Source: an uncultured Candidatus Saccharibacteria bacterium (lineage in GTDB: Bacteria; Patescibacteriota; Saccharimonadia; CAILAD01; JADZBC01). From it: 64,000 nt of DNA. The notes under the pieces are model-generated. The model had not been told where the DNA came from, searched no databases, and saw only the letters and a list, made by a program, of their open reading frames with translations. The DNA lies in the NCBI GenBank assembly GCA_964600985.1, contig CAZRJR010000001.1:399431-463430 (forward strand). Reading direction: 5' to 3'. The position numbers and the translations under genes are program-made. Every line of letters begins with the position of its first letter. The stretch's first letter is position 1. Below, in pieces: positions 13,123-43,477 of this stretch.

Positions 13123-14910
13123 TTAGCCGGCAACGATTTCGAACTGCTTGAGCTTGGCCTTAGTCAGCTTGCTCGGCGCGGCAGTCTGGAGCCGCAAGAG
13201 CTCAGCATAAATACCATCGCCCTTAGCAAGCTCAGCTGGCGTACCCATCTCAGCTATCTTGCCGCCTCGAATGCCAATTACCTTGTCCACATTGGCAATC
13301 GTACTCAATCGGTGAGCAATAATCATAGTAGTACGACCCTGCATAAGGCGCTCGAGTGCTAATTGGACCTCGCGCTCGGCTTTGCTATCGAGTGAACTTG
13401 TGGCTTCGTCGAGGATCAAGATCGGTGCGTCTTTGAGTATAGCGCGTGCTATGGCAATGCGTTGCTTTTGCCCACCCGAGAGTTTCACACCTCGCTCGCC
13501 AATTTGAGTATCGAAACCATTAGGCAACTTGCGAATAAAGCTTATGGCATTTGCAGCCTTAGCCGCCGCTTCCATCTGGCGCTGAGTAACCTTGCCGCTT
13601 CCGTAGGCGATGTTCTCGCCAATAGTCCCCGAAAACAGCGCTGGCTCCTGGAATACTACGGCAATATTTTTACGTAGACTTGCCTGTGTAACCTTGGTAA
13701 TATCGGTGCCATCGATCGCCACCTCGCCGCTAGTCAGCTCATAGAACCGCAACATGAGGTTAGCAATGGTGCTTTTACCCTCGCCACTTTCGCCTACCAA
13801 AGCCACCTTTTGCCCTGGGGTGATCGTAAAGTTAATGTCATTGAGCACCTGCTTGCCGCCCTGGTAGCCAAAGTTTACTCCTCGGTACTCAATCGCACCC
13901 TGGCGCACCTTGAGCGCCTTAGCATTCTCGCTGTCTCGTATGCTTGGTGCTAGGCCCATTACCTCGAAGTAGTCCTTACTGCCAGCCTTGGCTCGCTGCA
14001 AGGCGTCTACTATAAACGATGAGCCAAACAATGGCATTTGGGCCTGGTTGACCAGTTGCAAGAGCAGCGTAAATTCACCGAGCGTAATCGTCTTGGTGTA
14101 GGCTTGCCAGGTTATATAGCCATAAATGAGCGCGAATACAATGTTCAGGATAAATCGGCGCGCTACGTCGTACTTATGCCAAGTAACCGACTGGCCTTTA
14201 GTTTGCTTTTCTATACTACGACGCTTGTTGCGGAAGAACGCTGACTCCATAGCGTCGGTCACAAACGACTTGACCACACGGATTTGCGTTACTGACTCCA
14301 CAAATCGGCCGTTGGCTAAGTCAAGATCGCGATTTATACCCTCCTGTGACTTTTGCCAGTGTTTACTGGATCGCTGCGTAATATATATGTAGGTGGGGAA
14401 TATGGTGGCAAGTAGTAGGGCAACCGGCCAAGAGTAGTAGCTAATCAGAATTAAGGTAATAAACGTGGTCAAGAAAAACTGAGCAAAGTTATTGGCCATG
14501 GTCTTCATAAGCTCGCTAATTGTGGTAATAGTGCGCTCCAGCCGAGCCGTGATTTTACCCGTGATCTCGTTATCATAGTACTCGATTGGCAGCTGCATAA
14601 GGTGGTCATAGTAGCGCTGACTTAGGAGCGTATTGAGTTTAACCGACATCATATCACCCAAGTGGCCATTTACATTGCTCAGCAAGGTAACGACCACATC
14701 GCTGAGCAATATAAGTACAATGATTACGAGGAAGTAGCCAGCGCCATTGGTGCCGCCCTGGGAGTTAGCTACCAGGCCATCTACTATCATCTTGACCAAG
14801 AACGGAGATGCCAACGCCAACAGGCTGGTTACAATTACTAAGAAGGCAATAGCCACGTAGTAGCGCCAGAGTTTAGATGAATATTTTATGATTTTGGCAA
14901 TGTCGCGCAT
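13123..14910 (-). CDS. ABC exporter, fused permease-ATPase (MsbA/ABCB type)
   Basis: Six-TM domain followed by an NBD with Walker A GESGEGKST, the LSGGQKQR signature and Walker B ILILDEAT. First ATG at 14910 (MRDIAKII...). The ORF track start at 14943 is a TTG. Confidence 0.9.
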   Translation of the reverse strand: MRDIAKIIKYSSKLWRYYVAIAFLVIVTSLLALASPFLVKMIVDGLVANSQGGTNGAGYFLVIIVLILLSDVVVTLLSNVNGHLGDMMSVKLNTLLSQRYYDHLMQLPIEYYDNEITGKITARLERTITTISELMKTMANNFAQFFLTTFITLILISYYSWPVALLLATIFPTYIYITQRSSKHWQKSQEGINRDLDLANGRFVESVTQIRVVKSFVTDAMESAFFRNKRRSIEKQTKGQSVTWHKYDVARRFILNIVFALIYGYITWQAYTKTITLGEFTLLLQLVNQAQMPLFGSSFIVDALQRAKAGSKDYFEVMGLAPSIRDSENAKALKVRQGAIEYRGVNFGYQGGKQVLNDINFTITPGQKVALVGESGEGKSTIANLMLRFYELTSGEVAIDGTDITKVTQASLRKNIAVVFQEPALFSGTIGENIAYGSGKVTQRQMEAAAKAANAISFIRKLPNGFDTQIGERGVKLSGGQKQRIAIARAILKDAPILILDEATSSLDSKAEREVQLALERLMQGRTTMIIAHRLSTIANVDKVIGIRGGKIAEMGTPAELAKGDGIYAELLRLQTAAPSKLTKAKLKQFEIVAG

Positions 14911-14950
14911 ATTGTGCCAGTATAGCAGAGCCCAGCTGAGCAAAAAAGTG

Positions 14951-14978
14951 TTGACAAAGTGCTTACGGAGCGTAAAAT
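14951..14978 (+). promoter_or_regulatory. promoter copy A (TTGACA-N16-TAAAAT)
   Basis: TTGACAAAGTGCTTACGGAGCGTAAAAT. It is a near-identical direct repeat of promoter copy B at 15477-15505. Confidence 0.45.
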
Positions 14979-15143
14979 AGGATCAACTCAAAAGGCAAGC
15001 TTGATTGAGCAGACACGGAGTTCTTCACACAAGCCCGCTACCAAGCAGGATTAACAAGACGCCATCGACACTCAGGAAAGCGCACTTACGAGCCGCAGGG
15101 AGACCTGCAAACCGTACCCAAGAGAAGAGAAGAACACAACAAG

Positions 15144-15260
15144 ATGCAGATCACGAAGTTCAACCACTTCTACTTCGCCGGCACCGTCACGAGCGACACC
15201 AGCGCCGGCCTCCAGTTCATCTCGCCCATCGCCTCCGGCACCTGCGAGGACTGCGGCTAG
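15144..15260 (+). CDS. 38-aa micro-ORF with GC3 about 100%, unknown function
   Basis: ATG...TAG encodes MQITKFNHFYFAGTVTSDTSAGLQFISPIASGTCEDCG. All 37 codons after the start end in G or C, against about 50% genome GC. That is a coding signature of a high-GC donor. Confidence 0.35.
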   Translation: MQITKFNHFYFAGTVTSDTSAGLQFISPIASGTCEDCG

Positions 15261-15282
15261 CCGCCCCTCGCCTCGAGCTGCC

Positions 15283-15353
15283 GGCCCGGAGCAGGCCCCA
15301 CCATCGAGAGCGCCTTACAAGCGCTGATGGGAAAGGATGGCCTGCTCCGGGCC
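15283..15353 (+). other. extended GC-rich imperfect hairpin after the micro-ORF
   Basis: 15-bp perfect outer stem GGCCCGGAGCAGGCC / GGCCTGCTCCGGGCC. The loop encloses an inner stem-loop (CCATC gag AGCGC cttacaa GCGCT GATGG). Confidence 0.45.
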
Positions 15354-15400
15354 CCAGCCCAAGATTTTGCCCCGCCAGGCGCAACACCAAATCCGTTATC

Positions 15401-15431
15401 GAACCCGATAGCGGGTTCTTGATTTTTATAC
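15401..15431 (+). terminator. rho-independent terminator
   Basis: GAACCCG-ATAG-CGGGTTC followed by TTGATTTTTATAC. Confidence 0.55.
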
Positions 15432-15476
15432 AAAATTTTAGTCAAAAATTTGTAGGCAAAAAGTCCGCCAAAATGC

Positions 15477-15505
15477 TTGACAAAGTACTTACGGTATGCT
15501 AATAT
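15477..15505 (+). promoter_or_regulatory. promoter copy B of the rpf-like gene (TTGACA-N17-TAATAT)
   Basis: TTGACAAAGTACTTACGGTATGCTAATAT. The predicted leader to ATG 15684 is about 170 nt and contains the hairpin ACGACC-N18-GGTCGT-TTTT at 15537-15570. Confidence 0.5.
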
Positions 15506-15683
15506 TACTCCTGTTCATATAGTTTTTGAAGAAATCACGACCTGTAACCTCATATGTTAAGGTCGTTTTTGATTCTAAGCTATATGCGCGACCGCAAGGC
15601 CTCTACCCTACCGGGTACAGCGCCTAGCAGAGCATTAACCAGGAAAAGGACGTAGTTTTGGAGGGTATCTATACGTAGATACA

Positions 15684-16271
15684 ATGCAGAAACACATCCA
15701 ATTACTTGCCATAGCCGTGCTATTAGCAAGTCAGGTAGCCAAGCCAGTTGTACGAATTCCCGCTACCGCCACAGCCCAGGCTGCCAGCAAAGCTGTGAGT
15801 ACACCACAAACCACCTACAACCTTCAACTCAACGTTGCCTCTACCAAGGCCGTGGTGGTTGTAGCCGAGCAGCCCGACTTCGACCAAGAAGTTTTAGCCC
15901 CATTGCAAGCCGCTCAAGCTGCCAAGGCTAAAGCCGAGGCCGAAGTAGCCGCCCAAAAAGCTGCGCAAGCGCGAGTATACCTTGCTAGCGCGCCAGTCGA
16001 CAGCGTGTCTAACACCCACATAGGTGTTGCATCGGGCGACGTCTGGGAGCAGCTGCGTATCTGTGAAGCAGGTGGTGACTACACCCGCAACTCGGGTAAT
16101 GGTTACTACGGTGCCTACCAGTACAACCTCGGCACCTGGGCCAACTACGGTGGTTATGCCAGCCCGCACTTAGCTCCTCCTGCAGTGCAGGACGCCAAGG
16201 CGCGTGAAACGCAAGCCGCTCGTGGCTGGAGCCCATGGCCAGCCTGTGCACGCAAGCTCGGTTTACTTTAA
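15684..16271 (+). CDS. rpf: secreted resuscitation-promoting-factor (Rpf) type lytic transglycosylase
   Basis: Signal peptide, then an Ala/Gln-rich linker, then the Rpf domain WEQLRICEAGGDYTRNSGNGYYGAYQYNLGTWANYGGYASPHLAPPAVQDAKARETQAARGWSPWPACARKLGL. This matches the Micrococcus/Mycobacterium Rpf catalytic core, including the CE[AS]GG Glu. Confidence 0.85.
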   Translation: MQKHIQLLAIAVLLASQVAKPVVRIPATATAQAASKAVSTPQTTYNLQLNVASTKAVVVVAEQPDFDQEVLAPLQAAQAAKAKAEAEVAAQKAAQARVYLASAPVDSVSNTHIGVASGDVWEQLRICEAGGDYTRNSGNGYYGAYQYNLGTWANYGGYASPHLAPPAVQDAKARETQAARGWSPWPACARKLGLL

Positions 16272-16333: not shown

Positions 16334-16588
16334 CTTACTCTAGTTAGAATCTAATCGCACGAAATGCAAACATTGAAGCTTTCGGCATCGGCCGCCTGTA
16401 CACCGGCCAAAAAGTCGTCTTGCTCTACGGCATCTTTTTGACTCACGACTGGCTGCTCGGCCACCATAGTTGACTCACTAATACTATCTTTTTGCTGGTT
16501 CACCCTCCAACCCTCCTGTTGTTTGTTTATAATATAGCGCTTATGATATCCATCATACCACTATAGATAGCGGTTGCAAGGGGTTTTC

Positions 16589-39208: not shown

Positions 39209-39352
39209 TCTCACCCTCCGTTTCTTCTATTTGCTATCTTATCATTTTCAGGGTAACCAATCCAATCAAAATACCGAGTTGACGAGATTGTAGGCCAGGA
39301 GTATGATTATGCCACCACACAACTCCGTGTGGCTCCGACAGAAGGGAACCTC

Positions 39353-39787
39353 ATGACGAGGAAACTTCGTGTCGCAGCGCAGAAGGCGTGGACCGTCTTG
39401 GTGGCCTGCATGGTCATCTTGATCGCAATCGCCATCGGCTCTGCGACGATCATGGAGGCGACGAGCAAGACCGTCGCCTCGGCTCGAGCGCCCGACGCGG
39501 TGCTCACCCAGATCACGACCGTGGGAATCGTGCAGGTGGCCGCTGCGGCCATCCTGATCCTCGGGACGATCTTCCTGGCCACGCAGGTCTTCTACAAGCA
39601 GCGAAGCACGCTGAAGTCGAGGACTCGCAACGGCCTGCGACCCACGTTGGTGAGCTTCTTCGCGCGGTTCAACCTCACGGCCTCGGAGGAGGCGGACGTC
39701 GGCCATCGACACCCCCGCTCCACCTTCGGCCAGCACTCGGGCCTCGGCTCGCACGCGTTCAAGGCGTCCGTGCCGTTCCCCGTCTGA
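39353..39787 (+). CDS. 2-TM small membrane protein encoded in a high-GC island, unknown function
   Basis: 144 aa. ATG 39353 with GAAGGGA 7 nt upstream. Codon third positions are about 85-90% G/C. Two clear TM helices. The overlapping antisense ORF 39266..39802 is Arg/Asp-rich junk. Confidence 0.5.
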   Translation: MTRKLRVAAQKAWTVLVACMVILIAIAIGSATIMEATSKTVASARAPDAVLTQITTVGIVQVAAAAILILGTIFLATQVFYKQRSTLKSRTRNGLRPTLVSFFARFNLTASEEADVGHRHPRSTFGQHSGLGSHAFKASVPFPV

Positions 39788-39824
39788 CCACCTGACCACC
39801 AACGCCCCACCTCCACGGGGCTAC

Positions 39825-42397: not shown

Positions 42398-42891
42398 ACT
42401 AGTGACCTTTTCATAATATACACATCTTGGCCACCAATAAAGCCCGGGGCTAGGCGCTCGGTAACAAAGCCTTGCCTTTCATAAAACGAGGCGTGATCGT
42501 AGGTAACCAGTTCTACACTCCTGAGGTTCTTAGCTTGCAACCAACGTGTAGATTCGTTGAGCAAGTCAGCCCCCAGCCCACGGCCACGATGATCGGGCTC
42601 CACGTAGAGCCAAAATATATCGCCGCAGTTCGAGGTGGGTCGGGTGGCGCCGATAATATAGCCCACGAGCGCTCGTCTGTGCCACAAGCCTATGAGCATT
42701 CTGTCTGGACGTATACTGCCTAGTGCTAACCGTGCAGCGCTGTTCTGACGACGAGTAGCTCGCAAATAGTCATCGCTGTAGTATGCAAAGTCATTAGCAA
42801 GCGCTGACCGAAAAAGCCTACTGAGCACCAAGCTATGCTGTGGACGCAAGTTTGAGATCCTATATATGCCGTCAATCCATTTGCTAGCCAT
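42394..42891 (-). CDS. GNAT family N-acetyltransferase
   Basis: 165 aa. Motif A RGRGLGADLL. Overlaps its neighbours on both sides. Confidence 0.75.
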   Translation of the reverse strand: MASKWIDGIYRISNLRPQHSLVLSRLFRSALANDFAYYSDDYLRATRRQNSAARLALGSIRPDRMLIGLWHRRALVGYIIGATRPTSNCGDIFWLYVEPDHRGRGLGADLLNESTRWLQAKNLRSVELVTYDHASFYERQGFVTERLAPGFIGGQDVYIMKRSLV

Positions 42892-43477
42892 GTACTTCTA
42901 CCCGGTTACGTCCATCGTTTTTGGCTTTATACAAAGCCTCGTCGGCCTCCTTTATTAAGTCTTCTAGACTCAAGCCTGGGCGCATAGTTGCCACACCAAA
43001 CGAAGCGGTAACCTTGAGCACATCCACACCTACCTGGAGTCGAAGCGATTCAATTCGGGCGCGCAACTCCTCGGCAATGCTTGCCGCGTGTTCTAGGTCT
43101 GCCCCCACCAAACCGACCATAAGCTCCTCGCCACCGTACCGACCCACCACATCGATACCTCGGAGCGTATTGCGAATCGCCTGAGCAATTTCACGCAGCA
43201 CTGTATCGCCAGCGCTATGACCAAACTGGTCATTTATCTTCTTAAAGTAATCGATATCAATAAAGAGCAAGCTAAACGATTTTACGATCAAAAATTTGCG
43301 TCTATCTGGATTCTTGAGTTGAAAATCAACTTCGCCTATATAAGCCCTTAGCAAACTCATAAGTCCACGGCGATTCAGAACTAATGTAAGCTCGTCAGTC
43401 TGAGCTTGAGCCTCTAGTTCAGCTATGCGCCGCTTAAGCTGTTCTATTTTGTGCTTGTACGCCTCCTCTTGGCTCAT
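42884..43477 (-). CDS. standalone GGDEF-domain diguanylate cyclase (GGEEL variant, RxxD I-site present)
   Basis: 197 aa. N-terminal coiled coil, then DELTLVLNRRG, an RGID I-site and active site RYGGEELMVG. Confidence 0.8.
   Translation of the reverse strand: MSQEEAYKHKIEQLKRRIAELEAQAQTDELTLVLNRRGLMSLLRAYIGEVDFQLKNPDRRKFLIVKSFSLLFIDIDYFKKINDQFGHSAGDTVLREIAQAIRNTLRGIDVVGRYGGEELMVGLVGADLEHAASIAEELRARIESLRLQVGVDVLKVTASFGVATMRPGLSLEDLIKEADEALYKAKNDGRNRVEVHG

What the first reader, a model, noticed from the sequence alone, without database searches (positions are those of the whole stretch)
14941..15510. Foreign high-GC micro-cassette inserted in the rpf promoter region, flanked by a duplicated promoter
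Between the ABC exporter and the Rpf-like gene lies a 38-codon ORF (15144-15260) in which every third codon position after the start is G or C. The local genome is about 50% GC and its neighbours have mixed GC3. The ORF is followed by a 15-bp GC-rich stem with a nested inner hairpin (15283-15353) and a canonical terminator (15401-15431). The block is bracketed by two near-identical promoter copies: TTGACAAAGTGCTTACGG at 14951 and TTGACAAAGTACTTACGG at 15477, 17 of 18 identical, about 526 bp apart. That pattern points to insertion of a donor segment, with codon usage like high-GC Actinobacteria, into the original rpf promoter with duplication of the target. The net effect is a new small-peptide transcription unit upstream of a cell-wall hydrolase gene. 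Alternatively the peptide itself could be a regulatory leader.
Basis: seen in the sequence. Interest (0 to 1): 0.7.

Follow-up and report, generated by a model that had tools for sequence, protein, structure and literature searches.

The report
Conserved small-peptide RNA gene, not insertion
The GC-rich block upstream of the rpf gene is not a recent foreign insertion: it is a separately transcribed, highly folded RNA gene inherited within one group of Saccharibacteria, and it carries a tiny fast-evolving peptide gene whose codon third letters are almost always held at C or G.

Summary
The 38-codon ORF has G or C at all 37 third positions (P about 10^-12 given the window's codon usage). The long GC hairpin, the terminator and the two 17/18-identical promoter 18-mers are also there.

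The insertion story does not hold:
- The whole unit, promoter P1 to terminator T1 followed by promoter P2, sits between the ABC exporter and rpf in all 13 related Saccharibacteria loci I recovered.
- Only the window has a P1 that resembles P2.
- No similar sequence turned up in 1.84 billion representative proteins, in phages or in plasmids.

What is there is a roughly 440-nt structured RNA gene. Its long hairpin shows compensatory base changes. In one sub-lineage, which includes the window, the RNA carries a 37-46-aa peptide ending in C-x-x-C(G). I found 8 orthologs, all in the same gene neighbourhood.

The odd part is real and conserved. GC3 is 0.91-1.00 in every ortholog, against 0.5-0.65 in neighbouring genes. 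Synonymous sites change 3-10 times more slowly than in rpf, while amino-acid sites change at a near-neutral rate (pN/pS 1.4-9). Selection, not recent transfer, keeps the codon usage looking actinobacterial.

The function is unknown. My best guess is a dual-function RNA encoding a fast-evolving peptide with a cysteine pair that may be exported.

The parts
13123..14910 (-). MsbA-like ABC exporter gene with fused membrane and ATPase domains. The real start is probably the ATG at 14910, which would make the mRNA leaderless, with a -10 box TATACT at 14924-14919.
   Evidence: Pfam ABC_membrane and ABC_tran. NCBIfam best hit is MsbA-like but below the equivalog cut-offs. Start and -10 box read from the sequence. 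In synteny with the peptide in all loci that reach it.
14951..14978 (+). Promoter P1 of the RNA/peptide unit (TTGACA, 16 nt, TAAAAT). It lies back to back with the ABC exporter promoter.
   Evidence: Promoter scan, 11/12 match. A P1 of the form TTGACA-N16-TA[GA]AAT is present in all relatives whose locus reaches it. Only the window's spacer resembles P2.
14985..15143 (+). 5' leader of about 159 nt, A/C-rich and U-poor (U = 0.11). It contains the conserved small hairpin H1, GCAGG-N4-CCTGC, at 15095-15108, and a purine-rich stretch just before the ATG.
   Evidence: Composition. The H1 stem is invariant in 6 orthologs.
15144..15260 (+). 38-codon ORF with GC3 37/37. It belongs to a family of 37-46-aa peptides ending in C-[DE]-x-C(-G).
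   Evidence: Eight orthologs found by profile searches, all between the ABC exporter and rpf. The period-3 signal is confined to the ORF and is absent from the ORF-less relatives.
15244..15271 (+). Hairpin H2 (GCGAGG...CCTCGC). Its 5' arm is the codons for C-E-D-C, and the stop codon sits in the loop.
   Evidence: MFE fold and consensus fold of 6 orthologs. In L201, L205 and L207 the CxxC-coding end is duplicated and the old copy is kept, out of frame, as the H2 arm.
15278..15357 (+). Long conserved hairpin H3. The basal stem is CCCGGAG / CTCCGGG with flanking CTG...CAG, and it carries an inner hairpin.
   Evidence: 13-sequence alignment A8: 97.7% of cells paired, 8 of 23 pairs with compensatory changes, covariation score 0.38 against 0.19 shuffled (0/500) and at most 0.105 when partners are slid. 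The covariance model finds it once in the window and in none of 74 more distant loci. No Rfam family matches.
15390..15427 (+). Intrinsic terminator T1, which ends the P1 unit.
   Evidence: Terminator scan. Its position is conserved. The sequence is replaced by a different hairpin plus T-run in the ORF-less subclade.
15477..15505 (+). Promoter P2 of rpf (TTGACA, 17 nt, TAATAT, with a TG extension).
   Evidence: Nearly invariant in the clade. P2-like promoters with a GCTT[AG]TG spacer motif lie 120-200 nt upstream of rpf in distant Saccharibacteria too.
15684..16271 (+). Rpf-type transglycosylase gene. It is a neighbour with its own promoter and leader.
   Evidence: Pfam PF06737 at 3.6e-18. NCBIfam Rpf hit is below the cut-off.

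Best explanation
The block is a vertically inherited transcription unit specific to one Saccharibacteria clade. It is not a fresh insertion. Promoter P1 drives an RNA of about 440 nt that ends at terminator T1. Promoter P2 then drives rpf separately.

The RNA is highly folded. Its long hairpin H3 is conserved by compensatory changes, including in relatives that have no ORF, so the RNA itself very probably has a role such as stability, processing or protein binding.

In the sub-lineage that includes the window, the RNA also serves as mRNA for a peptide of 37-46 aa. The peptide is unstructured and acidic, and it is rich in Ser, Thr, Ala, Gly and Pro. It has a semi-conserved middle motif (SDF.AD.TGPSPTAAG, or ISPIASG in the window) and an invariant C-terminal C-x-x-C. 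This makes the unit a dual-function RNA, or a small-protein gene on a structured mRNA.

The peptide's amino acids change at a near-neutral or diversifying rate. Its codon third letters are held at C (76%) or G (18%). Selection therefore acts on codon choice or on the act of translation, and on the cysteine pair, more than on most residues.

My working mechanism is that the peptide is a fast-evolving product with a cysteine pair that acts outside the cell or at the envelope. It would be co-expressed with, and possibly exported by, the divergently transcribed ABC exporter.

Shown: the anatomy, the conservation, the synteny, the RNA structure and the codon constraint. Inferred: translation, export, the RNA's separate role and the reason for the codon constraint.
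For: Synteny and inheritance:
- The ABC exporter, the unit and rpf are in the same order in L002-L006. The peptide gene lies in that neighbourhood in L201-L210.
- P1, H3, T1 and P2 align across the clade.

Independent unit:
- P1 is near-consensus and T1 is strong.
- T1 is conserved by position but not by sequence between the two subclades.

RNA structure:
- Whole-unit z-scores are -5.9 (window) and -5.5 (ORF-less L002).
- H3 covariation.

Coding:
- Eight orthologs have a conserved ATG, frame, stop and CxxC.
- The period-3 signal reaches 1.0 only in the ORF's phase and only in ORF-bearing relatives.
- After a duplication in L201, L205 and L207, the new copy keeps C-D-G-C-G-stop in frame. The old copy keeps only the RNA pairing.

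Codon constraint:
- Pooled third letters are C 240, G 58, T 12, A 5.
- Peptide pS is 0.03-0.21, against rpf pS of 0.16-0.54 in the same genome pairs. Peptide pN is 0.11-0.59, against rpf pN of 0.00-0.12.
- Leader mismatch is 0.12-0.15, against 0.02-0.03 at ORF third positions, for the closest pairs.

Not translational optimisation:
- S2, EF-Ts and RRF have ordinary GC3.
- Several of the codons used are rare in the window, for example TCC at 6% and GTC at 10%.
Against: - There are no expression or translation data.
- There is no clear Shine-Dalgarno sequence before the ATG. Many genes here are leaderless or lack one.
- The peptide has no signal peptide and no predicted fold (pLDDT 51).
- The ABC exporter is a generic MsbA-like type without a peptidase domain. 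It is kept in relatives that lack the ORF, so the link between exporter and peptide rests only on adjacency.
- pN/pS above 1 is not what a classical protein gene shows.
- The variability order pos1 > pos2 > pos3 (0.37/0.31/0.17) would also fit weak antisense coding. However, the antisense frame has no conserved start or stop and no promoter.
- Only 8 peptides and 13 hairpins are available, and they are related, so the covariation statistics are indicative only.
Confidence: 0.6

Rival explanations
1. One reading: a recently acquired high-GC donor segment, from an actinobacterial host, inserted into the rpf promoter and duplicated the target. The two near-identical promoter copies would be the scars.
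For: - Codon usage is actinobacterial-like.
- Local GC reaches 0.69-0.71 against 0.50 for the window.
- The 18-mers at both ends match 17/18.
- The unit is absent from more distant relatives with the same ABC-rpf synteny.
Against: - The unit and both promoters are present in all 13 loci of the clade.
- P1 does not resemble P2 in any relative.
- There is no homolog outside the family in 5.8 billion clustered proteins (word-index search), 1.84 billion representatives (exhaustive profile search), phages or plasmids.
- There is no peptide hit in the actinobacterial rpf loci L033-L063.
- Third-position differences are 3-10 times fewer than at rpf synonymous sites. The GC3 is therefore actively maintained.
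Confidence: 0.04
2. A cis-acting regulatory leader peptide. What matters is the act of translating the ORF (ribosome speed on NNC codons, or stalling at the two invariant TGC Cys codons or the C-terminal motif), not the peptide itself. Translation would remodel H2/H3 and set read-through of T1 into rpf, or the stability of the RNA.
For: - Codons are more constrained than amino acids.
- The two Cys codons are always TGC and lie in the 5' arm of hairpin H2, with the stop codon in its loop.
- Conserved residues sit 12-25 aa and 1-5 aa from the C-terminus, a layout seen in ribosome-arrest peptides (my own knowledge).
- relA/spoT lies nearby.
Against: - rpf has its own strong, deeply conserved promoter P2 directly after T1.
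- T1 lies 130-280 nt beyond the stop, with H3 in between.
- No terminator/antiterminator alternative was evident in the predicted folds.
- The unit persists without any ORF in L002 and L004-L006.
- In L201, L205 and L207 the stop has moved away from H2.
Confidence: 0.12
3. A purely non-coding RNA. The ORF would be an untranslated by-product, because an NNC-periodic stretch is automatically free of stop codons.
For: - The ORF-less subclade keeps the RNA.
- H3 and T1 are the best-conserved parts.
- There is no Shine-Dalgarno sequence.
- pN/pS is above 1.
- All three sense frames are open across the region.
Against: - No known non-coding mechanism gives a strict period-3 C/G pattern. The pattern starts within about 9 nt of a conserved ATG, ends at the stop in L201, and is absent from the ORF-less relatives.
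- The CxxC motif, its in-frame position and the SP..G motif are conserved across 8 sequences.
- The duplicated C-terminus keeps CDGCG-stop in frame.
Confidence: 0.12
4. Precursor of a ribosomally made, post-translationally modified peptide (lanthipeptide-like). A conserved leader (DF.AD...SP) would precede a variable Ser/Thr/Cys core, with export by the adjacent ABC transporter.
For: - The leader-like half is more conserved than the core-like half.
- The D-F-x-A-D motif and a Pro near the putative cleavage site recall the FNLD box and the PR/PQ site of class I lantibiotic leaders (my own knowledge).
- The tail is rich in Ser, Thr and Cys.
- The ABC exporter is adjacent.
Against: - No modifying enzyme (LanB/C/M, radical SAM, YcaO and the like) was found among the 46 window ORFs scanned between 1.3 and 47 kb. 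The hits are housekeeping-type proteins.
- The exporter lacks a C39 peptidase domain.
- The window's 'core' would be only 6 residues.
- Saccharibacteria genomes are small. Whether they encode such enzymes elsewhere was not tested here.
Confidence: 0.07

Closest known systems
Dual-function small RNAs that also encode a peptide (S. aureus RNAIII/delta-hemolysin, B. subtilis SR1/SR1P, E. coli SgrS/SgrT); from my own knowledge
   Same: - Own promoter and own terminator.
- A few hundred nucleotides long and strongly folded.
- A short ORF (26-43 aa in the known cases) embedded between structured domains.
- RNA parts conserved independently of the ORF.
   Different: - No target or base-pairing function is known here.
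- No sequence or Rfam relationship.
- The conserved extreme third-position C/G bias and pN/pS above 1 are not features I know of in those RNAs.
Leader-peptide attenuators (trpL type; poly-cysteine leaderless uORFs of mycobacteria, Canestrari et al. 2020); from my own knowledge
   Same: - A short ORF upstream of a gene.
- Conserved Cys codons near the ORF's end, overlapping a hairpin.
- A terminator downstream.
   Different: - The downstream gene has its own conserved promoter after the terminator.
- No alternative antiterminator was evident.
- Only two Cys codons, and they are spaced apart.
- The unit survives without the ORF in sister genomes.
ydaO/c-di-AMP riboswitch, the known cis-regulator upstream of actinobacterial rpf genes (Rfam RF00379); the association is from my own knowledge
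   Same: A structured, GC-rich RNA ending in a terminator, sitting upstream of an Rpf-type cell-wall hydrolase gene.
   Different: - No match to the Rfam model even at E = 10 on a 1-kb search.
- The architecture is different.
- A promoter lies between the element and rpf.
Secreted peptide precursors next to ABC exporters (class I lantibiotic precursors, pheromones such as ComC or AgrD); from my own knowledge
   Same: - Small and acidic, with a conserved N-terminal part, a hypervariable C-terminal part and conserved cysteines.
- Fast amino-acid evolution.
- A neighbouring ABC exporter.
   Different: - No processing or modifying enzymes nearby.
- No double-glycine leader.
- The exporter has no peptidase domain.
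- No homology.
Horizontally acquired islets flanked by direct repeats
   Same: Atypical composition, and a pair of direct repeats 526 bp apart.
   Different: - Present at the same site in all clade members.
- The repeats exist in the window only and are functional promoter parts.
- No donor was found.

Membership tests
Recently inserted foreign cassette with target-site duplication | Absent from the same site in closely related genomes | tested here: not met
   Present in all 13 loci of the clade. Rpf is 73-82% identical to the window's in L001-L006. It is absent only from more distant relatives.
Recently inserted foreign cassette with target-site duplication | Flanking direct repeats that are part of the insertion event, and so shared by carriers | tested here: not met
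   The P1 spacers of L201, L205, L206, L207, L209, L003, L002 and L004-L006 do not resemble P2. Only the window has the 17/18 match.
Recently inserted foreign cassette with target-site duplication | Sequence similarity to a donor lineage | tested here: not met
   Only the clade's own peptides were found in 5.8 billion clustered and 1.84 billion representative proteins. Nothing in phages or plasmids. Nothing in 31 actinobacterial rpf loci. Whole actinobacterial genomes were not scanned in six frames.
Recently inserted foreign cassette with target-site duplication | Atypical base composition or codon usage | tested here: met
   GC3 is 1.00 against about 0.5. The codon likelihood ratio favours actinobacterial usage.
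ydaO / c-di-AMP riboswitch (RF00379) | Match to the Rfam covariance model | tested here: not met
   No hit at the gathering threshold in the window, nor at E up to 10 in 14800-15800.
Any Rfam 15 RNA family (RNase P, tmRNA, SRP, 6S, Ms1 and others) | Match to a covariance model or to ARAGORN | tested here: not met
   The only hits are chance matches to miRNA-hairpin models, far below their thresholds.
Dual-function sRNA (peptide-encoding regulatory RNA) | Independent promoter and intrinsic terminator bounding a short RNA | tested here: met
   P1 matches 11/12, and T1 was found by the scan. Both are conserved in position. This rests on sequence only, with no transcript data.
Dual-function sRNA (peptide-encoding regulatory RNA) | Conserved RNA structure outside or independent of the ORF | tested here: met
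   H3 covariation. H3 and T1 are kept in ORF-less relatives. The H2 arm is kept after the coding end moved.
Dual-function sRNA (peptide-encoding regulatory RNA) | Translated small ORF | tested here: inconclusive
   Comparative signs of coding are present: frame, start, stop, the CxxC motif and period-3 composition. There are no ribosome or peptide data.
Dual-function sRNA (peptide-encoding regulatory RNA) | Regulatory base-pairing with target mRNAs | not testable with these tools
   An unrestricted duplex search against the rpf leader gave only meaningless long duplexes.
Leader-peptide transcription attenuator | Mutually exclusive terminator and antiterminator controlled by ribosome position, with the regulated gene depending on read-through | tested here: not met
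   No alternative pairing with T1 was evident in the predicted folds. rpf has its own conserved promoter P2 downstream of T1.
Class I lanthipeptide / RiPP precursor | Modifying enzymes encoded nearby | tested here: not met
   46 window ORFs between 1.3 and 47 kb were scanned against Pfam. The hits are housekeeping-type proteins with no RiPP enzyme, and 8 ORFs had no hit. The rest of the genome was not available.

The most novel reading that the evidence does not exclude
The host-like codon usage is itself the selected trait. Saccharibacteria live attached to high-GC Actinobacteria. On this reading, the compact, nuclease-resistant RNA with its rapidly diversifying peptide is an effector aimed at the host. 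In the extreme version, the mRNA is delivered to the host and translated by host ribosomes. That would explain why third positions are held to actinobacterial-preferred C/G codons, several of them rare in the epibiont's own genes, while the amino acids evolve as in an arms race.
Probability: 0.03. Interest if true: 0.95.

Novelty: new variant of a known kind. Interest (0 to 1): 0.5.

Why it matters
Small proteins and non-coding RNAs of the Candidate Phyla Radiation, the group of ultra-small bacteria that includes Saccharibacteria, are almost unexplored. This locus gives a clean case defined by comparison across genomes:
- a new RNA structure with no Rfam family;
- a new peptide family with no Pfam or NCBIfam model, listed in databases only as 'hypothetical protein';
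- a position next to a peptidoglycan-remodelling Rpf gene and an exporter.

The codon pattern is the interesting part. Synonymous sites are more constrained than amino-acid sites, and they are held at a composition foreign to the genome across species. This shows that atypical GC3 is not a safe sign of recent horizontal transfer. It also points to selection on codon identity, RNA composition or translation dynamics that still needs an explanation. If the peptide acts on the host or on the cell envelope, it could bear on how these epibionts interact with Actinobacteria.

Tried and rejected
- Known RNA. Rfam at gathering threshold on the whole window, Rfam at E up to 10 on the region, and ARAGORN gave nothing real.
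- Exact-sequence look-ups of the window's peptide and of Rpf. Neither is on record.
- Single-peptide word search. No candidates.
- Metagenome scan with a hairpin pattern (CCCGGAG N45-75 YTYCGGGYYC N0-1 CAG). That scan was wasted.
- Translational optimisation as the cause of the C-ending codons. Rejected, because S2, EF-Ts and RRF have ordinary GC3 and several of the codons used are rare in the window.
- Antisense shadow of a minus-strand gene. This does explain the GC3-0.88 frame at 39329-39787, but not this ORF. Here the antisense open stretch has no conserved ends or start and no promoter.
- Transcript-wide composition as the sole cause. The whole RNA is C-rich and U-poor, but the leader is A-rich while ORF third positions almost never hold A.
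- Low local mutation rate. Rejected, because the leader and codon positions 1 and 2 diverge 5-7 times faster than position 3.
- Peptide structure prediction. No fold, pLDDT 51.
- sRNA-to-rpf-leader duplex search. Uninformative.
- Literature searches on Saccharibacteria with Rpf or small RNAs. Nothing relevant.
Full report

Yes. The region reads, on the + strand:
- promoter P1: TTGACA at 14951, 16-nt spacer, TAAAAT ending at 14978;
- an A/C-rich leader of about 159 nt;
- an ATG-initiated ORF at 15144-15260;
- a GC-rich hairpin region;
- an intrinsic terminator: stem 15390-15417 with a T-run to 15427;
- a second promoter P2: TTGACA at 15477, 17-nt spacer with TG, TAATAT ending at 15505;
- the Rpf-type gene at 15684.

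The neighbours are an MsbA-like ABC exporter on the minus strand and a transglycosylase-domain protein (PF06737). A RelA/SpoT gene follows.

The ORF encodes MQITKFNHFYFAGTVTSDTSAGLQFISPIASGTCEDCG. All 37 sense codons after the ATG end in C (30) or G (7). GC at codon positions 1 and 2 is ordinary, at 0.43 and 0.51. The window is 49.7% GC and its genes have GC3 of 0.38-0.61. That includes the presumably highly expressed ribosomal protein S2, EF-Ts and RRF. Conditioning on the peptide's amino acids and the window's own synonymous usage, 18.4 G/C-ending codons are expected, and the chance of 37 is 10^-11.8. The ORF ranks first of 773 ORFs of at least 25 codons.

The 18-mers at 14951 and 15477 are 17/18 identical. 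They are the only two matches in 64 kb even with 3 mismatches allowed, where 0.07 are expected.

**2. What do relatives show?**

A scan of species-representative genomes with the Rpf protein returned 80 loci. The six closest, L001-L006, are Saccharibacteria MAGs with 73-82% Rpf identity. L002-L006 have the same arrangement, with the ABC exporter divergent from rpf and a spacer of 650-950 bp. L001 is a short contig that begins inside the spacer.

Aligning the spacers shows that every one of them that reaches the site has a P1 next to the exporter. All of them have a long GC hairpin, a terminator and then P2. P2 and the rpf leader are almost invariant. The segment is therefore neither absent nor variable among close relatives.

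A high-GC3 ORF ending in C-x-x-C is present in L001 and L003 but not in L002 or L004-L006. Those four still carry a strongly folded RNA unit of about 410 nt.

A profile of the three peptides retrieved four database proteins. An exhaustive HMMER search of 1.84 billion representative proteins added three more, plus one spurious repeat protein. Fetching their contigs showed the same neighbourhood wherever the contig reached the flanking genes: ABC exporter, peptide, rpf, a 50-aa ORF and relA/spoT.

That gives eight distinct orthologs of 37-46 aa:
- a variable N-terminus;
- a middle motif S[EK]SDF.AD.TG[PS]SPTAAG, which in the window is ISPIASG;
- a variable stretch;
- an invariant [ATS]-C-[DE]-x-C(-G)-stop.

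Nothing similar turned up in actinobacterial rpf loci, phages or plasmids.

In more distant Saccharibacteria that keep the ABC-rpf synteny, there is no peptide and no hairpin (covariance model). In L014, the one such locus I scanned, there is only the P2-type promoter. The unit is therefore specific to one clade. It was gained at or before the base of that clade and has been inherited vertically since.

**3. The promoter 'duplication'**

P1 exists in all clade members whose locus reaches it, but its spacer differs from P2 everywhere except in the window. For example, L201 has P1 AGCACTTTGATG against P2 AAGTGCTTGTGC, which is 4/12 identical.

The window's P1 18-mer, TTGACAAAGTGCTTACGG, equals the P2 18-mer of L004 in the ORF-less subclade (the other three differ from it by one or two bases). 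The window's own P2 differs from it by one base. The similarity does not extend beyond about 18-20 nt.

The simplest reading is a short gene-conversion tract in the window's lineage. The alternative is convergence on a shared regulator site. P2-like promoters across distant Saccharibacteria keep a GCTT[AG]TG spacer motif, which suggests the spacer is functional. Either way it is not an insertion scar.

**4. The RNA**

The P1-to-T1 unit folds far better than shuffled sequence, with z = -5.9 in the window and -5.5 in the ORF-less L002.

The long hairpin H3 (15278-15357) was aligned in 13 loci:
- 97.7% of cells form pairs;
- 8 of 23 pairs show compensatory double changes;
- the covariation score is 0.38, against 0.19 for shuffles (0/500) and at most 0.105 for slid partners.

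The sequences are related, so the shuffle control overstates significance. The slide control is the more reliable one.

The basal stem (CCCGGAG/CTCCGGG, flanked by CTG...CAG) is invariant in sequence. That hints at recognition by a protein or nuclease.

T1 is conserved by position, but in the ORF-less subclade it is a different hairpin plus T-run.

Two smaller elements are conserved in the ORF-bearing subclade:
- H1 in the leader (GCAGG-N4-CCTGC, 15095-15108);
- H2 (15244-15271), whose 5' arm is the C-E-D-C codons and whose loop holds the stop codon.

No Rfam family matches any part.

**5. Is the ORF coding, and what constrains it?**

Several points favour translation:
- The ATG, frame, stop and CxxC are conserved in 8 sequences.
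- The period-3 signal reaches 1.0 only in the ORF's phase and only in ORF-bearing genomes.
- In L201 the signal starts and stops with the ORF.
- L201, L205 and L207 provide a natural experiment. The 3' end of the ORF has been duplicated. The upstream copy keeps TGC-GAC-GGC-TGC-GGC-TGA in frame. The old copy, now out of frame behind the stop, keeps only its pairing in H2. Both the peptide's Cys pair and the RNA hairpin therefore seem to be under selection.

The evolutionary pattern is unusual:
- GC3 is 0.91-1.00 in all eight orthologs. Pooled third letters are C 240, G 58, T 12, A 5. Flanking genes in the same contigs have GC3 of 0.58-0.65.
- In the same genome pairs, rpf shows pS 0.16-0.54 and pN 0.00-0.12, giving pN/pS of 0.03-0.24. 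The peptide shows pS 0.03-0.21 and pN 0.11-0.59, giving pN/pS of 1.4-9.
- For L201 against L205, 9.8 synonymous differences would be expected at the rpf rate and 1 is seen.
- Differences per codon position over all pairs are 0.37, 0.31 and 0.17.
- The non-coding leader of the closest pairs differs at 0.12-0.15 of sites, against 0.02-0.03 at ORF third positions.

The local mutation rate is therefore normal. Amino-acid sites drift or diversify at about the neutral rate outside the motifs, and third positions are held.

The codon set fits actinobacterial usage better than the window's own: +0.63 to +0.93 bits per codon for all orthologs, against -1.22 to -0.69 for 33 window genes. It includes codons that are rare in the window, such as TCC at 6%, GTC at 10% and ATC at 23%.

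Explanations that fail:
- It is not translational optimisation of the usual kind.
- It is not a relic awaiting amelioration.
- It is not an antisense gene, since the antisense stretch has no conserved start, stop or promoter.
- It is not just the transcript's overall C-rich, U-poor composition. The leader is A-rich, whereas A is almost absent from third positions.

I cannot say what the selective agent is. Candidates are ribosome transit speed or accuracy, avoidance of A/U-specific nucleases, or adaptation to a foreign (host) decoding system.

**6. Most likely function**

I commit to this: an independently transcribed, stable, structured RNA that in this sub-lineage doubles as the mRNA of a fast-evolving peptide with a cysteine pair.

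The peptide is predicted to be unstructured (pLDDT 51). It is acidic and has no signal peptide.

P1 lies back to back with the promoter of the ABC exporter, whose probable real start is the ATG at 14910, giving a leaderless mRNA. Co-regulation, and export of the peptide by that transporter, is therefore a reasonable but unproven inference. Fast amino-acid turnover combined with a conserved Cys framework is typical of secreted signalling or antagonistic peptides (my own knowledge).

No modifying enzymes were found among the 46 window ORFs I scanned between 1.3 and 47 kb. The hits are housekeeping-type proteins: MreBCD, PBP2, RseP, UppS, RRF, EF-Ts, S2, HisRS, BipA, RF1, HtrA, LytR, ParAB, FtsW and others. 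That makes a RiPP less likely.

The leader-peptide alternative is weakened by P2, by the distance to T1 and by the ORF-less relatives.

**7. Comparison with what is known, and novelty**

In how it works, the closest kind is a dual-function small RNA of the RNAIII, SR1 or SgrS type. It belongs to no described RNA or protein family.

The actinobacterial precedent for a structured RNA upstream of rpf is the ydaO/c-di-AMP riboswitch. I tested for it and did not find it.

The peptides exist in databases only as unnamed or hypothetical proteins.

The new element is a conserved, selected, genome-atypical synonymous composition combined with near-neutral amino-acid evolution. I rate this as a new variant of a known kind, with moderate interest (0.5). 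What replaces it is an unexplained and testable anomaly in a poorly known phylum.

Noticed in passing
window 15512-15683: The rpf 5' UTR transcribed from P2 is highly conserved. It contains a terminator-like hairpin (ACGACCT...AGGTCGT plus TTTTT, 15537-15570) and then a nearly invariant block (GCAGAGCATTAACCAGGAAAAGGACGTAGTTTTGGAGGG). This looks like an attenuator or riboswitch-like leader, but it matches no Rfam family, including ydaO.
   Followed up: partly
window 15660-15686: The Shine-Dalgarno sequence GGAGGG of rpf lies 18 nt upstream of the ATG. The gap holds a conserved 6-bp hairpin (TATCTA-TACG-TAGATA, 15666-15681) whose loop varies in relatives. The hairpin would bring the Shine-Dalgarno sequence next to the start codon, making a split ribosome-binding site.
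   Followed up: partly
L007-L026, 120-200 nt upstream of rpf: A P2-type promoter with a conserved spacer motif (TTGACAAA..GCTT[AG]TG..TA.TAT) precedes rpf in several of the distant Saccharibacteria loci. The spacer may be a regulator binding site.
   Followed up: partly
window, many gene starts (e.g. 8772, 18049, 24581, 26708, 28715-side, 35679, 36638-side, 47153, 63819-side): Many genes have a TATAAT-like box 6-10 nt upstream of the ATG and no Shine-Dalgarno sequence. This suggests widespread leaderless mRNAs in this genome.
   Followed up: no
window 39266-39802 (-): A 178-aa ORF with GC1 of 0.82 and no Pfam hit, probably rich in Gly, Ala, Val, Asp and Glu. Its antisense frame mimics a GC3-0.88 ORF (39329-39787 +). 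This shows how an antisense shadow can fake a high-GC3 signal.
   Followed up: partly
window 16351-16503 (-): A 50-aa ORF between rpf and relA/spoT is also called as a 50-aa gene at the same place in L201, L203, L205 and L208. It has no family hit.
   Followed up: no
L201 3090-3135; L205 595-640; L207 3100-3145: The CxxC-coding end of the peptide ORF is duplicated. A new in-frame CDGCG-stop lies upstream. The older CE(N/D)C copy is kept out of frame as the 5' arm of hairpin H2, so the coding and RNA-structure roles appear to have separated.
   Followed up: partly
L001 (JAYRIB010000055.1) and L207 (JAYRIB010000064.1): One MAG (GCA_041907025.1) holds two different alleles of the peptide (P0001 and P0008) on two contigs that both break inside this locus. 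Strain mixture or an assembly break at a hypervariable locus would explain it.
   Followed up: no
L201 3245-3360; L003 3512-3625; L207 3265-3385: A GC-rich domain of about 110 nt lies between hairpin H3 and terminator T1. It is present in some orthologs and, in part, in the ORF-less subclade. It is deleted in the window, L205 and L206, so the RNA is modular.
   Followed up: no
window 42884-43477 (-): A stand-alone GGDEF diguanylate cyclase domain protein (197 aa) sits next to a thioredoxin-reductase-like gene.
   Followed up: no
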